Shown here piece by piece: positions 3,001 to 12,000 of a stretch of DNA of 64,000 nt. The position numbers were made by a program. The DNA comes from Escherichia coli (lineage in GTDB: Bacteria > Pseudomonadota > Gammaproteobacteria > Enterobacterales > Enterobacteriaceae). Every line of letters starts with the position of its first letter. Positions within the stretch are counted from its first letter, which is position 1. The DNA lies in assembly GCF_016026235.1 (NCBI RefSeq), contig NZ_CP065613.1. The stretch is one strand, 5' to 3'.

Positions 3001-6000
3001 ATAGTGAGTCTGGTCCGCAAGATGTTTCAACATTGCAGCTATTTTTACGATCGTATATTTTAAAGGTTGCGTATTTCCTTTTAGATGGATTATCTTCATC
3101 CTTCCATGCTTTTACCAGACCGCGCACAGTTACTTGAGGGCGAATGATCATTACACCATTACAGTAACTGGCTTCCCCGTTAATACCACCATGATAAAAA
3201 AGACTCCCTTCATCTTTAGTATATCTGTTGATATTCCCCCAGCCAGCAAAATTACCCCATCTGACACGTGTAAAATCAAACTTTAAAACAAGACATGTTT
3301 TGGATAAAGCCATGAATGTATCTAAATCCTTTCTCTTAATAGTAACTATATCCAGATAGTTAAAAGGAGGTGAAATATTTTTGTTAATTATCCTGATTAC
3401 ATCTTCAATATCACCCCGTTCATCGAGACGACAATATGCATTTCTTTCTGGCAAGTAATATAACCCAAGGCTGTGCACAAGTTTCTGACTTAATTCGATA
3501 GGTGCACGGCCTTCTTCAACGCCATGAAACCTACGACGATAAATTAATGCCTCTCCCCCTTTGAACACCCCATCTAAAGGTGGCTCAAGATAAATACGAT
3601 GTCCTTGACCTCCACCCCATGACTTTTGAATCTTCCAACAATACTCAACATCCATACGCATATTCTGCAATGCCCATCTATCTGCTGTAGTAACATTTTT
3701 CTCTAGAGCTAGCGCGCCATGAATTAGGACACTATTTCCAATCGCGTAGATAACCACTTCATCATTTTGAGCATTTTCTTTCAGAAATTTAATTGACCTT
3801 TCAGCCTCTATTAACCAAGCGGCATCATCATTCTGTGGCTTTTCCGAAATAGCATGAAGCTCTGTGAATTTAAATTGGCTCATGAGTAATATTCATATCC
3901 TTTTACTTTATCTATAACTGACATCACTTATAAGTTATAAGTTATAAGTTATAAGTTATAAGTTATAAGTTATAAGTTCCCCTTATGAATTAAGAAATAA
4001 CATCAAACAAATACCACCCCTCTCGTAATTTTTTCACTGAATCTGCCATAACTTCCATTACGATGGAATCTACGTACTTGCCAAGAGTAAAATGAGCGCA
4101 ATGACCCGGTATTTGTTATGTTTCTCTCGCGATATGTAGTGCCTCGCGATATGAGGGCTGTCCCACAATTACCTTGAATTTGCCCTAGCCTAGCTGGCCC
4201 CCATCCAGCATTCCAATAATAAAGCTCTGCGACGACTAGGTCCTTTAACTTAACCTGTAGACGCCCATCATGCGGGATGACTTCAAGAGAATTTTCTATG
4301 CCTGGCATCGTCGGTAAAAATAACCGGGATGGATACAAATCATGTTGTAGGTATCCTATCCGACCAAAATCGAGCATTCCCGCCAATGGCCAAGCCATAC
4401 AAGTTTTATTCACCAGTTGTTCAAAAGTTGGTGGAGTTATTAAGGTTGTTGTACTGAGTGGATCCGGAGCTTGGCTGGAAAGCATTTGTTCACGTGTCCA
4501 GAACGATTCAATATGGGATGTCAACGAGTCCGCTCCTTCCTTATCACTGCTTACAGTTTGTGACCACCGAACAATCGACAACTCTACGCACTGTTCCATT
4601 GACATTGAAATGGGCGAGCTAAATGCAATTAGCTCGTCTCCTGGGTTTGCCGCCTCTACTTGAGCAAAGAAAGTTCGCAATGAAGCCTCGATCGCCTTAC
4701 TATCACTTTTGAATTCAGTCGATACTGAGAGCCATTCGGGACGATAAGGTCGAAGAAAAGCCAAAGTTGGATGGATAGGCAACGCCAAGAGAGAATGTTG
4801 CTCGGTCAACTCCATTGGTATCCTCCAGATGTGTCTAGCCACAGCTAACGTGCGAAGATAAGCGGAAATTACGCGAAGGGCTGTTCGAGAGGAAAAATGA
4901 GGGGCAAAGCCCTCTCCCAAGGGCCGAATGAAATATCCTGCATCCCCTTGGTACGGTGCATTTGGATATGCCGTCCGGTTTTTTGTCCATTCGAAGGCCA
5001 TTTGTCGAATAAATGGACAGCGGGTAAAAGTTTCCAACTTGCTAATGGTTATATGGAAGATTCTTGGCAAATCCGTACCTTGAACACTATCAAAGTCATC
5101 GGGAATGATGAAGTCTTCTGGAGCTAGTTCCAAATCAGTATTCATGAGCAGAATCGATAACCCAAAATCTTTCATCAACAATGATGAAAGTGGTGAGGGT
5201 AGAAGAATATTCTCTGCCAACAAAGTCGTAGGAAAGTAGTTAAACTCTTTAATTGCCATCCAGAAAATACATAATACTTCGACAACCTCGGCTTCAAGTT
5301 TGCGCGAGCGCAGCAATTGAAGCAGCAATGATTCGGTTTCAGCTTTCGTCTCAGGCTCTCCCAGTCGAGCGGCAAGCTCCTGGATAGTCCACCACCGAGC
5401 AGACGTAGCAGGCCATCCAAGACGGGCAATAAGAATGCGAAGATCGTTCATTTCACTTCCTGGGCGATTGGCTCGAGCAGTTTTGACATCCAGCAAGGTG
5501 GTTCTAAGGGCAAGGTCCGAGTATCCTCAATCACACAATTAACCATCGTCTCTGTGAACTTTACAGCTTCATCAATGCGATTTTGCTTAACGTAGAAATA
5601 GACCATAACTTCCGATGGAGCTAGGCGTGACGACACTGGCTCATCAAACATGTTGTAGGTTGTTACGGCCACAAATTCATCACAGCGCTGCGGATAATTT
5701 TGGACAACCAGGTCGAGTCTTTTGCAAGTCACATCCACGTTCTCCATGTAACCAATCCATCCCCCATTACGGATCTGTGCATGAACAAGATACTTCCAAG
5801 CTGCAGTTAAGCCACTTAATCTACGTTTTGTTTGAAATGCAAACTCGGAAAGATGTAGAGCTTCCCTCATCCATTTGTTGTTTTTTGCAAATAAAATCTT
5901 ATCCAGTTCGACGAGTAAATTTCGCCCCTGCTTTTGGCTTTCCCAGTGCTGATACCAAGTACGGAGAAGTTTTGGACGCTCTTTGTAATATGGTTCCAGA

Positions 6001-9000: not shown

Positions 9001-12000
9001 AGCGTGTCGCACAGTGCGCTCAGGTAAGTACTCTTTCCGCGTCCTGGTGGACCAGTCAGCACAATTGCCTTTCCGGTAGCATTAATTGTGCTCTGGACAA
9101 ATTCTTGATGGAATATTTCATCAGGAACCTCATAACCTTCTGGAACAACAAAATCCTCTGGCAAAGGAGCTGGAGGTGAAGCTCGCAAGATGGTTCCAAC
9201 CTCTGCCAGTTTAATCCAGCCATCCGGCGCAGGGAGATTTTTTTGCGTTGCCCAATTCAGAGCCACATATTTTAGATTAGCGATTCCCTCTGGCGTACCA
9301 TGCAGTCGAAGGCGAGCATCAACTTCATGCTCCAATGCAAGATAGCCCTTATCGCTGTGTCGAATACATAATTGTCTGAAGAAAAGTTTGCATTCCTCAA
9401 CGCCGCCGAGTTCAACTTCTACCAAGGTGCGCTGAGGTTCTGGGATCTTAGAAGGATCAATCCGGTCTCGTTCCAGACAAACCTCAATAGCAGCATCTGG
9501 TCGGCGATTCGTTATGAGCGAAATTTCGCCAATACGCACTGGATCAAGTTGTTTGAAAGCATCGAACCATTTGCGTAGCATCGATCTCGACCGCTCTGTC
9601 TTGCCCGTTTTCTCCAGCATCCAATCCCAAGATAGAAGATGCGTCTCAGAATCTGGGGTGAACTTGATCTGCTGAAGGTCAACGAAGCCATCACTTCGTT
9701 CGATGACGATATCATCTAGTCCCTGTGGTGCTTCGTTTTCATTATCACATTCAAATTTCACGCGGCTATAGCGCGTCGGCGCATCAAGCCAATCGCACAG
9801 GACCTTAAGGCCCTGGCGATTTTGATAAATATAACCAGCTGCAGTGATGGCGGTTTTCTTAATATCTTCACTCATAGCATCAAGGTATGTTTAGTTCGGT
9901 TTTGATCCAAGTGTCCAAAGTGTCTACACGTACAAACTGGGTCGGAACAGGATATGGCGGATGAACCATCCAGTAGTACACATCGCGGCTTACATAGAGT
10001 TCAATATTCCTTAAAGGAACACTCTCTGGCTGTGGCCACTGGAGCAGTTCAAGCAACCTTGAACGGTGAGTTTCGAGAAATTTTCTGCGGTCTAAAATAC
10101 GACTGAATTGTCCTGCCCTGTCATTCTCTGCCTTGCCAAATATCCGATCACGAAGACGACGGCTATCTTTCATTGTAAATGGCGGCTGGTTGTACTTACA
10201 CTCTACTGTCACGAGCAAATTGCTTTCCGGCCAGTATGCAAAAACATCGAAATCACCAACGTCATCAAACTTCTCTTCCCGGAATCTTCTAAAGAAATCA
10301 ATACCTCGCTGAACATAAGGTGTATGCCTGCGGAATATTTCCTCTGTACGAAGCTCGAGACGCTTTTCAATACTCTCCTTAACCTCGCGAATGACTGGCT
10401 TAACATGAGGCCAATCAAATTCCGCAGGCAAATAACCGTCTCGTACCGCCGACATCCAAATGTACATTGCCCGGCTTGCCGACTCTGCCCCCCAACGCAA
10501 ATCGGCACCATCAATTACCAGCGGCTTGATAGTGTATCGATCGATTCGCTTATTCCGCTCCCAATATGGAATATCTCCTTCATCGATATCCCTTCCAACG
10601 AGCCTACGAACTCCTACTTCCGAAAGAGTCAGAAAAGCAACAATCTTTTGGGCCTCAGAATAGTCAAGCCTATCAATGCTATCAGCCAACCCTCGCGCAA
10701 GGCGATCAGGTGCTGCAGCATAAGACAAGGAAAGTTCGTTCCCGAATCCATATCGTTGAGCTTGCGATAACACAGCGAGAACAGTGAGCATATTCTGAAG
10801 CTCGAACCCCAAATCGGTGATAAAAGCTTTTTTGAGTTTCTCTGAAGCCAGCAACCCCTCTGGCTCTCCTTCCACCGCATCCTTGTCATTTGTGCCAAGC
10901 CCCAACCTGGACTTCGCATACTCCTTTGCAAAGGTAGCCTCACGATCACCAAAATCTGTCGAATAGAAAACTTCTGGAATATATGAGTCGTCGATCTCAA
11001 CACCACCCACATCTATACCATTGTGAAGGGTATCACTGGCACCAGTCAGCACCATGAACCAATCAACCAAGCCAACTAATTCTCGTAGTACATCCTCTGT
11101 AACTCTATCTACACCATTTGAAGATAAATTGACGGTCTTCTCTAGTAGATATCGATAATGGCGGGCCTTATCACCGAATTCTTTGCGTGCATGTTCTATC
11201 GCATCAAGTCTGTCATACTCAACTTCATGAGCAAGACTCAAACGGGCTCGTTGGATTCTAGTCCTCTCAGTAACAAGGAGGGCATCGTGTTGCTCGATGA
11301 ATGCCTGCAGAAGCTGATGCCTATCAAATGCTGCAAGTCGATTCTCAATGTGAAGACGCATGCGAGCACTGGAAGGATCAATCCTGGCCTTGGCATCTGA
11401 CAGTTCATACCTGCCAGGAATAAACCCAAGCCCCATGATTTCTGCGGCCAGTTTTCTACGGGCAAGCTTGTAATCGGTAGGCGAAGGAATTATAGGGTAT
11501 ACATAGTCGGGGACATCAATATTACGGGTCATGACTTTTAAATGATAACGAGCCGCTTGCGACGCTATATGAGTAAATCGTTGAGCAAATTCATCAGGCA
11601 TCTGCAAACCAAGTACTGCATGACATTTTTCGAGCGTTTCCAGTAAGCAACGAACCTCGAATGATCCATCCTTGGAAAGATTTAATCCAGCAAGCACTGC
11701 ACGTGTATCAACTTGAACGTGAAATACATCGGGGTTGTGGGAATCCGGGATGACTGAAGTCACCACGTGTTTAAATTCGTCTAAAGAAGAAGGACTCTCT
11801 TCAGCTTTAACCAGACTAGATGGTTCAGGGGAGCACGTAAACAAAACATGCGGCTGCCTAAATAGAGAAATATCAGACATCATTTTTCTGCAGCGATAGC
11901 TACAGTCGGCCAGAAGTTGGGCAAAAAGGTCTATCAGACGTCCATCTTCAAAGCGTAATTCTTTGGTTATTTCTATTAATGTTTGAACGGTACAGGAACC

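What the first reader, a model, noticed from the sequence alone, without database searches (positions are those of the whole stretch)
5448..9875. 1475-aa STAND NTPase with possible N-terminal nuclease effector and long C-terminal sensor-like region
Walker A (GPPGRGKST) and a STAND-style Walker B (LILDGLDH) sit at residues ~270-370. The ~250-aa N-terminal region has a D/E/K pattern (GLDDIVIERSDGFVDLQQIK) that may be a PD-(D/E)xK-type nuclease. The ~1000 C-terminal residues are helical and repeat-like, as in Avs/NLR sensors that bind phage proteins. Unlike typical single-gene Avs systems it is embedded between two co-translated partners, which suggests a multi-component variant.
Basis: partly seen in the sequence, partly recalled or inferred. 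Interest (0 to 1): 0.75.

Follow-up and report, generated by a model that had tools for sequence, protein, structure and literature searches.

The report
Split-sensor Avs1 antiphage STAND nuclease
The 1475-residue gene is a real antiphage "STAND/NLR-like" ATPase with a DNA-cutting head, whose sensor tail is finished by the next gene, and it sits beside a separate defence gene (Upx); a 2026 preprint has already noted this arrangement, so it is a confirmed but largely known kind of system.

Summary
The ORF at 5448-9875 (minus strand, 1475 aa) has Walker A at residues 275-283, Walker B at 363-370 and a D…QxK nuclease motif at 52-73. The N-terminus is a Cap4-type PD-(D/E)xK nuclease. The centre is a NACHT/STAND NTPase. 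The rest is all-helical, and its only whole-length structural match is SeAvs3.

The downstream 482-aa gene overlaps by ATGA and is a true component. It follows the NTPase gene in almost every related locus whose contig reaches that far, across several phyla. In 21 of 57 full-length loci it is fused to it as one ~1900-1960-aa protein, so it is the detached end of the sensor.

The upstream 1260-aa gene is not a core subunit. It is a Upx homologue, present in about 11 close relatives, with variable gene order, and it also occurs without the NTPase. Evans et al. [quoted passage not shown]

The 565-aa gene further downstream is an unrelated stand-alone island gene.

Most likely mechanism, by analogy and untested here: a phage protein, probably large terminase, binds the two-piece sensor. 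This drives ATP-dependent oligomerisation, Cap4 nuclease activation and abortive infection.

Novelty is low and interest modest.

The parts
5448..9875 (-). Gene for the 1475-aa Avs1-type STAND (Pfam NACHT) protein: Cap4 nuclease, then NTPase, then the proximal helical sensor
   Evidence: ORF and translation; Pfam NACHT E=4.4e-12; PADLOC Avs1b 4.4e-11 over residues 255-681; RefSeq WP_001287788 'NACHT domain-containing protein'
9111..9875 (-). Residues 1-255: Cap4-type PD-(D/E)xK nuclease effector domain (GYxYQ motif at 14-18, E42, D54/D55, Q69-x-K71)
   Evidence: PF14130 in 18/40 members at E<=1e-3 and 37/40 at <=0.1, best 2.3e-13; PADLOC SAVED_PDDEXK 2.8e-8, Effector endonuclease 1.2e-7, LmuA 1.6e-5; invariant Q18, D55, Q69, K71
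9657..9722 (-). Nuclease motif GLDDIVIERSDGFVDLQQIKFT (residues 52-73)
   Evidence: Position; D55, Q69 and K71 invariant in 40 sequences down to 27% identity
7716..9110 (-). Residues 256-720: STAND NTPase module (NBD, helical domain, winged helix)
   Evidence: Pfam NACHT; AF2 model shows an alpha/beta NBD followed by helices; Foldseek hits to SeAvs3, RPP1, CED-4, MalT, ORC/Cdc6; most conserved region of the family
9027..9053 (-). Walker A GPPGRGKST (residues 275-283)
   Evidence: P277, G278, G280, K281, S282, T283 invariant
8766..8789 (-). Walker B LILDGLDH (residues 363-370); DGLDHVWR is invariant
   Evidence: D366-R373 invariant; NACHT signature D[GAS]hDE met except that His replaces the last acidic residue (for the definition)
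5451..7715 (-). Residues 721-1475: all-helical (TPR-like) proximal part of the sensor; 721-1100 is the fastest-evolving stretch
   Evidence: AF2 pLDDT 88, helices only; aligned with SeAvs3 over the whole length; 16% identity in distant members against 42% for the NBD
4003..5451 (-). Gene for the 482-aa distal sensor subunit (helical N-half, beta-rich C-half); ATGA overlap with the NTPase gene
9880..13662 (-). Neighbouring 1260-aa Upx homologue (large N-terminal sensor, C-terminal PD-(D/E)xK with E1154-x-K1156). It is an associated but separable defence gene, not a core subunit
   Evidence: Faint Upx HMM hits at 1112-1156; listed as a Upx homologue 'Next to Avs1' in Table S5 of 10.64898/2026.04.30.721860; present in about 11 close-clade loci only, gene order variable, and occurs without the NTPase gene

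Best explanation
This is an Avs-type (Avs1 family, split-sensor form) abortive-infection receptor made of two polypeptides. The 1475-aa protein carries a Cap4-type DNA endonuclease, a NACHT/STAND NTPase and the proximal helical part of the sensor. The translationally coupled 482-aa protein supplies the distal end of the sensor.

Shown here: the domain identities, the obligate pairing and frequent fusion of the two genes, the whole-length fold similarity to SeAvs3, and the location in mobile elements.

Inferred by analogy with Avs1-3 and Avs7: in the resting state the nuclease is held inactive. A phage protein, most probably the large terminase subunit, is clasped by the two-piece sensor. The NTPase exchanges ADP for ATP and oligomerises, probably as a tetramer. 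This assembles the Cap4 domains into an active nuclease that degrades DNA and kills the infected cell.

The upstream Upx homologue is a second, self-contained sensor-nuclease that travels with the pair. Upx proteins have been shown to sense terminase.
For: Cap4 nuclease. NACHT/STAND motifs and fold.

SeAvs3 is the only full-length structural match (E 2.5e-11, about 1400 columns). All other hits cover only the ATPase.

Partner gene: it is adjacent in 79 loci across phyla, or fused to the NTPase gene. The partner family of 805 clusters occurs in no other architecture among the 150 best listed. Fused and split forms are interleaved on an NJ tree, implying at least 4-5 independent fission or fusion events at the same boundary. 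The ATGA overlap is shown.

The sensor stretch 721-1100 evolves fastest, as expected for a ligand-binding surface.

Mobile and defence context: the ssrA island in E. coli, present in 10-13 of 5426 genomes; Tn7 cargo; an ICE.

[quoted passage not shown] Cap4 tetramer activation in SeAvs3 and SeAvs7.
Against: The PADLOC Avs1b profile aligns only with the NTPase part (positions 209-626 of 1924). It misses some family members entirely. My own sequence evidence for Avs1 membership, as opposed to 'an Avs1/Avs3-like family', is therefore partial.

The N-terminal domain itself was not modelled.

Within its close clade the protein is unusually conserved over its full length (66-85% across Gamma- and Betaproteobacteria).
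Confidence: 0.78

Rival explanations
1. An integrated multi-component system. In this reading the Upx-like protein, the NTPase protein and the 482-aa protein (perhaps also the 565-aa protein) depend on one another. For example, Upx might capture or unfold terminase and pass it to the STAND sensor, or one nuclease might be regulated by the other.
For: There is a 4-nt gap between the Upx stop and the NTPase start. The Upx homologue is rare (246 clusters), yet it lies next to the pair in about 11 of about 26 close-clade loci and in 2 of 3 look-ups started from Upx homologues. The trio moves together as Tn7 cargo. The literature highlights an 'Avs1-associated clade' of Upx.
Against: Most loci of the family have no Upx homologue, and many have no co-oriented upstream gene at all. 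Gene order is not fixed: Upx lies downstream in L085 and L013. Upx homologues occur without the NTPase gene (L087/L088). Upx proteins defend on their own when tested. The 565-aa gene is a widespread stand-alone gene found elsewhere without either neighbour.
Confidence: 0.12
2. The same Avs-type receptor architecture, but the trigger is not the large terminase. It could be another conserved phage protein, or a host perturbation as for bNACHT25/DnaJ.
For: At least 20 Avs families with similar helical sensors recognise different phage proteins. My sequence link to Avs1 covers the NTPase only. No ligand test was possible.
Against: The whole-length structural match is to the terminase sensor SeAvs3 and to no other solved Avs. 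The authors who defined Avs1 assign this neighbour of Upx to Avs1.
Confidence: 0.2
3. A housekeeping or regulatory STAND protein (MalT/AfsR-like signal transducer) unrelated to phage defence.
For: STAND NTPases include transcription regulators, and MalT appears among the Foldseek hits.
Against: There is no DNA-binding output domain. Instead there is a Cap4 nuclease head with invariant catalytic residues. Distribution is sporadic (10-13 of 5426 E. coli genomes) and confined to integrative islands, Tn7 and ICEs.
Confidence: 0.02

Closest known systems
Avs1 (antiviral STAND type 1; terminase sensor), in particular the 'split-TPR variant' noted by Evans et al. 2026 (bioRxiv 10.64898/2026.04.30.721860)
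   Same: Tripartite order of effector, STAND NTPase and helical sensor. PADLOC Avs1b is the best STAND profile hit. The gene lies next to the Upx clade that the paper calls Avs1-associated, and this locus's Upx protein is listed there.
   Different: The sensor is encoded in two genes. The PADLOC Avs1b profile covers only the NTPase. As far as the held text shows, the split form has only been mentioned, not tested.
SeAvs3 (PDB 8DGC), Cap4-nuclease STAND that binds phage large terminase
   Different: Only 13% sequence identity and no sequence-level hit to any PDB chain. SeAvs3 is a single polypeptide.
bNACHT proteins (Kibby et al., bacterial NLR-related proteins)
   Same: Pfam NACHT module, N-terminal nuclease effector, C-terminal repeat sensor and antiphage context.
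   Different: Walker B reads DGLDH rather than the D[GAS]hDE signature. I could not match it to any numbered bNACHT. The sensor is split across two genes.
SeAvs7 (Cap4 nuclease STAND sensing major capsid protein with EF-Tu)
   Same: Cap4 effector plus STAND NTPase plus bilobed TPR sensor. It provides the model for nuclease activation by tetramerisation.
   Different: A different sensor family and a different ligand. It did not appear among the fold hits.
Upx (for the upstream 1260-aa gene)
   Same: Length (family median 1245 aa). C-terminal ExK of a divergent PD-(D/E)xK at the same relative position (E1154-x-K1156 against SeUpx E1176). No NTPase. Listed as a Upx homologue.
   Different: Curated Upx HMMs barely detect it (E 0.05-0.08). 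It belongs to the divergent Avs1-associated clade.

Membership tests
STAND NTPase superfamily | P-loop NTPase with Walker A, Walker B and the GxP motif of the helical domain, followed by a winged helix; fold related to Apaf-1/CED-4, NLRs and MalT | tested here: met
   Walker A 275-283, Walker B 363-370 and GHPL 474-477 are all invariant. Foldseek hits SeAvs3, RPP1, CED-4, MalT and ORC/Cdc6.
NACHT clade (Pfam PF05729; Kibby/Aravind definition) | Match to the NACHT profile | tested here: met
   PF05729 E=4.4e-12, residues 271-443, model positions 3-165 of 167. Precomputed NACHT hits on all listed homologues.
NACHT clade (Pfam PF05729; Kibby/Aravind definition) | D[GAS]hDE signature after the Walker B aspartate (definition read) | tested here: inconclusive
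   The sequence is D366-G-L-D-H370. Four of five positions fit, and the last acidic residue is an invariant His across the family.
Cap4 / DUF4297 PD-(D/E)xK nuclease (PF14130) | Profile match and conserved catalytic D…(E/Q)xK residues | tested here: met
   Query E=0.0067; 18/40 members at <=1e-3, best 2.3e-13. Three PADLOC Cap4-type models match at 1e-8 to 1e-5. Q18, D55, Q69 and K71 are invariant.
Cap4 / DUF4297 PD-(D/E)xK nuclease (PF14130) | dsDNA endonuclease activity switched on by oligomerisation | not testable with these tools
   Requires biochemistry. The domain was not included in the structure model.
Avs1 (terminase-sensing antiviral STAND) | NTPase domain groups with Avs1 | tested here: met
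   PADLOC Avs1b is the best and only Avs profile hit (4.4e-11). Other family members reach 1e-12 and 1.7e-17, though three members give no hit.
Avs1 (terminase-sensing antiviral STAND) | Sensor domain homologous to the Avs1 sensor | tested here: inconclusive
   The Avs1b profile does not align beyond the NTPase. The whole sensor does superposes on SeAvs3, which is reported to be structurally similar to Avs1. Assignment to Avs1 rests on Evans et al..
Avs1 (terminase-sensing antiviral STAND) | Activation by the phage large terminase subunit and protection against phage | not testable with these tools
   No complex prediction or experiment was available.
Upx (upstream gene only) | ~1250-aa protein without NTPase, with a large N-terminal sensor and a C-terminal divergent PD-(D/E)xK with ExK | tested here: inconclusive
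   1260 aa. ExK at 1154-1156, with faint Upx HMM hits exactly there (E 0.054 and 0.08). No other Pfam match. Listed as a Upx homologue in Table S5 of the 2026 preprint.

The most novel reading that the evidence does not exclude
The split may be functional rather than incidental. The detachable 482-aa sensor tip could act as an exchangeable or separately regulated subunit, for example a guard piece whose loss or capture by a phage protein fires the NTPase. Alternatively, it and the co-travelling Upx homologue could form a coupled two-sensor circuit on the same phage terminase, with Upx binding the unfolded ATPase core and the STAND sensor binding the folded form.
Probability: 0.1. Interest if true: 0.7.

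Novelty: already known. Interest (0 to 1): 0.3.

Why it matters
This result gives a concrete, checkable annotation for a locus that public records label only as 'NACHT domain-containing protein' plus 'hypothetical' or 'multidrug DMT transporter permease'. It is a two-gene Avs1-type receptor next to a Upx homologue, both members of families whose tested representatives sense phage terminase.

It also shows that the two-gene form is common rather than an oddity. About four fifths of the 150 best partner-family clusters listed are stand-alone proteins. Fission or fusion has happened repeatedly at one boundary. This makes the E. coli pair a convenient system for asking whether an NLR-like sensor can work with a non-covalently attached sensor module. 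Beyond that it adds no new kind of system.

Tried and rejected
Searches that returned nothing:
- Sequence and profile searches of the PDB found nothing significant for the full protein, the N-terminal alignment or the partner alignment.
- Pfam, NCBIfam and PADLOC gave nothing for the 482-aa protein (0 of 40 members) or the 565-aa protein. For the 1260-aa protein they gave only faint Upx hits.
- The accessions were not found in the held supplements of Lee et al. 2026, which are cut, and no paper holds WP_001287788.

Hypotheses rejected:
- That the Pseudomonas upstream genes (524 and 508 aa) are a split form of the 1260-aa protein. They show no similarity.
- That the 565-aa gene is a subunit. 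It has a 54%-identical homologue next to a Upx homologue without any NTPase gene, but it is otherwise a widespread stand-alone island gene. It also has a lower G+C than its neighbours.
- The 'DMT transporter permease' name. The protein has no hydrophobic segment (maximum Kyte-Doolittle 19-residue mean 1.26) and a soluble helical plus beta fold.
- The 'type IV secretion protein Rhs' name given to some homologues.
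Full report
**Observation.** The window carries one long ORF at 5448..9875 on the minus strand (ATG start, 1475 aa).
- GPPGRGKST at 275-283
- LILDGLDH at 363-370
- GLDDIVIERSDGFVDLQQIKFT at 52-73

Pfam places a NACHT domain on residues 271-443 (E=4.4e-12). The flanking genes are tightly packed. The upstream 1260-aa ORF (9880..13662) stops 4 nt before the start codon. The downstream gene starts inside the stop codon with an ATGA overlap, giving a 482-aa product at 4003..5451.

**The protein itself.**
- The N-terminal 255 residues are a Cap4-type PD-(D/E)xK nuclease. 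Three PADLOC Cap4-nuclease models match at 2.8e-8 to 1.6e-5.
- In an alignment of 40 family members reaching down to 27% identity, PF14130 matches 18 members at E<=1e-3 and 37 at <=0.1 (best 2.3e-13).
- Q18 (GYxYQ), D55, Q69 and K71 are invariant, with E42 and D54 nearly so.
- The NTPase has invariant Walker A, an invariant DGLDHVWR Walker B block and an invariant GHPL (GxP) motif.
- An AlphaFold2 model of residues 262-1461 is confident (pLDDT 88, pTM 0.84). It shows an alpha/beta nucleotide-binding domain followed by helices all the way to the end.
- Foldseek against the PDB gives SeAvs3 (8DGC, Cap4-nuclease STAND bound to phage terminase) as the top hit by far. The E-value is 2.5e-11 with about 1400 aligned columns, covering NTPase plus sensor.
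- Every other hit (ORC/Cdc6, plant NLR RPP1, CED-4, MalT) covers only the ATPase, at E>=3e-4.
- At sequence level no solved structure is detectable.

**The downstream gene is part of the same receptor.** A genome scan returned 79 loci with collinear relatives at 25-91% identity. They come from Proteobacteria, Paenibacillus, Latescibacteria, Thermomicrobiales, Gastranaerophilales and Methanothrix.
- In almost every locus whose contig extends far enough, a homologue of the 482-aa protein follows directly.
- In 31 of 57 full-length loci it is a separate gene, usually overlapping by 1-40 nt.
- In 21 of 57 it is fused in frame, giving a 1840-1958-aa protein.
- The databases also hold fused forms. 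P0112 from Duganella (1953 aa) aligns with the 482-aa protein at 58% identity over its C-terminus.
- A profile search of 1.8 billion representatives finds 805 clusters. Among the 150 best, all are either ~470-500-aa proteins or the C-terminus of ~1900-1990-aa proteins, and about four fifths are stand-alone.
- On a neighbour-joining tree of residues 1-720, fused and split forms are interleaved in at least five places. The boundary has therefore been made or broken repeatedly.
- The partner has no Pfam, PADLOC, NCBIfam or PDB sequence match.
- Its model (pLDDT 87, pTM 0.89) has a helical-repeat N-half and a beta-rich C-half.
- Within the family, residues 721-1100 evolve fastest: 16% identity in distant members, against 42% for the NBD, 25% for residues 1101-1475 and 23% for the partner. 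This fits a ligand-contacting surface.

**The upstream gene is a neighbour, not a subunit.** Homologues of the 1260-aa protein occur next to the pair in only about 11 loci, all in the close clade.
- Other loci have unrelated upstream genes or none on the same strand.
- Gene order varies. The homologue lies downstream of the pair in L085 and L013.
- It occurs without any NTPase gene in L087/L088.
- Its only database signal is a faint Upx hit at residues 1112-1156, around E1154-C-K1156.
- The literature settles it. Evans et al. (bioRxiv 10.64898/2026.04.30.721860) show that Upx is a terminase sensor with a C-terminal PD-(D/E)xK domain (ExK motif, SeUpx E1176).
- The same paper says that Avs1 is predicted to resemble Avs3 structurally, which agrees with my fold search.

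**The 565-aa gene is unrelated.** The gene at 2186..3883 has a lower G+C than its neighbours and no family match. It belongs to a large family of at least 991 clusters found as a stand-alone gene in other mobile islands. One homologue sits next to a Upx homologue without the NTPase pair. I treat it as an independent neighbour.

**Context.** In E. coli the block is present in 10-13 of 5426 complete genomes, inside the integrase-bearing island at ssrA. Elsewhere it is Tn7 cargo or sits in an ICE. This is the usual setting for defence genes.

**Mechanism.**
- Shown: a Cap4 nuclease head with intact catalytic residues, a STAND NTPase with intact motifs, a helical sensor completed by a second polypeptide, and translational coupling of the two genes.
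- Inferred from Avs1-3 and Avs7: a phage protein, most likely the large terminase, is enclosed by the sensor. ADP is exchanged for ATP. The NTPase oligomerises, probably as a tetramer. The Cap4 domains then assemble into an active dsDNA nuclease, and the infected cell dies before phage are released.
- I put 0.78 on the Avs-type two-piece receptor reading, and roughly 0.55 on terminase as the trigger.
- The main rival, an interdependent Upx-Avs1 machine, gets about 0.12. The association is real but facultative.

**Comparison and membership.**
- The protein meets the tests for STAND, for the Pfam NACHT profile and for Cap4 nuclease.
- The NACHT D[GAS]hDE signature is met in four of five positions (DGLDH).
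- For Avs1, the NTPase test is met (Avs1b is the best profile hit). The sensor test by sequence is inconclusive, because the profile does not extend beyond the NTPase and misses some members. Ligand specificity cannot be tested here.
- Filing it under Avs1 therefore rests on the whole-length fold match to SeAvs3 plus the published assignment.

**Novelty.** The family, the split form and this locus's pairing with Upx are already noted in a 2026 preprint, so I rate it as already known. This analysis adds several points:
- proof that the 482-aa gene is the detached sensor end;
- the finding that the split form predominates and has arisen repeatedly;
- the conclusion that the 565-aa gene is unrelated;
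- correction of misleading database names.

Interest: 0.3.

Noticed in passing
window 3928-3978: A perfect heptanucleotide tandem repeat (TTATAAG; AACTTAT on the coding strand), 7.3 copies, lies in the 119-nt gap between the 482-aa gene and the 565-aa gene. Copy number differs among otherwise 99.7-99.9% identical E. coli loci: 7 here, 8 in strain MB57 and 4 in CE0026a. The hit-length differences are multiples of 7. It looks like a slipped-strand contingency repeat in the promoter or 5' leader of the 565-aa gene.
   Followed up: partly
window 2186-3883 (minus strand): A 565-aa protein with no Pfam, PADLOC or NCBIfam match and a lower G+C than its neighbours. Its family has at least 991 clusters with a nearly fixed length (565-570 aa). 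It is found as a stand-alone gene in integrative islands and ICEs, sometimes beside a 777-aa SEC-C protein. It is a candidate single-gene defence or island gene of unknown function.
   Followed up: partly
L087 9001-17028, L088, L092: In metagenomic contigs a Upx homologue (56% identity to the window's) is followed by a 570-aa homologue of the window's 565-aa protein (54% identity) and then a 777-aa SEC-C protein, with no STAND gene. In the window the Avs1 pair therefore lies between two genes that are adjacent elsewhere.
   Followed up: partly
L002 6757-10008; L011, L013 (upstream of the NTPase gene): In several Pseudomonas, Variovorax and Paracidovorax loci the position of Upx is taken by an unrelated ~508-aa gene, sometimes preceded by a ~524-aa gene. 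Its end overlaps the NTPase start by 8 nt. In L017 and L024 a ~1500-aa protein of another family sits there. No family match is known for any of them.
   Followed up: no
window residues 301-304 of the 1475-aa protein (nt 8964-8975): An invariant RHHY motif about 20 residues after Walker A is conserved in all 40 aligned family members. I know of no assigned role for it in STAND NTPases.
   Followed up: no
window 13854-28176: The rest of the island resembles the CP4-57/ssrA island annotated in E. coli MB57. It contains an integrase fragment, an HTH regulator, an inovirus Gp2-family gene, a YfjI-family gene, a GTPase, DUF932, antirestriction, RadC, a YeeU/CbtA toxin-antitoxin pair and a 1571-aa autotransporter adhesin. 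A tRNA-Met gene is at 31088-31163.
   Followed up: no
public records of the 482-aa and 1475-aa proteins: Many GenBank and UniRef entries name the 482-aa protein 'multidrug DMT transporter permease', and some name the NTPase protein 'type IV secretion protein Rhs'. Neither name is supported. The 482-aa protein has no hydrophobic segment and a soluble predicted fold.
   Followed up: yes
L083/L084 1024-18636: In Providencia rettgeri the Upx, NTPase and partner trio is the cargo of a Tn7-like transposon (TnsABCDE) inserted next to glmS.
   Followed up: no
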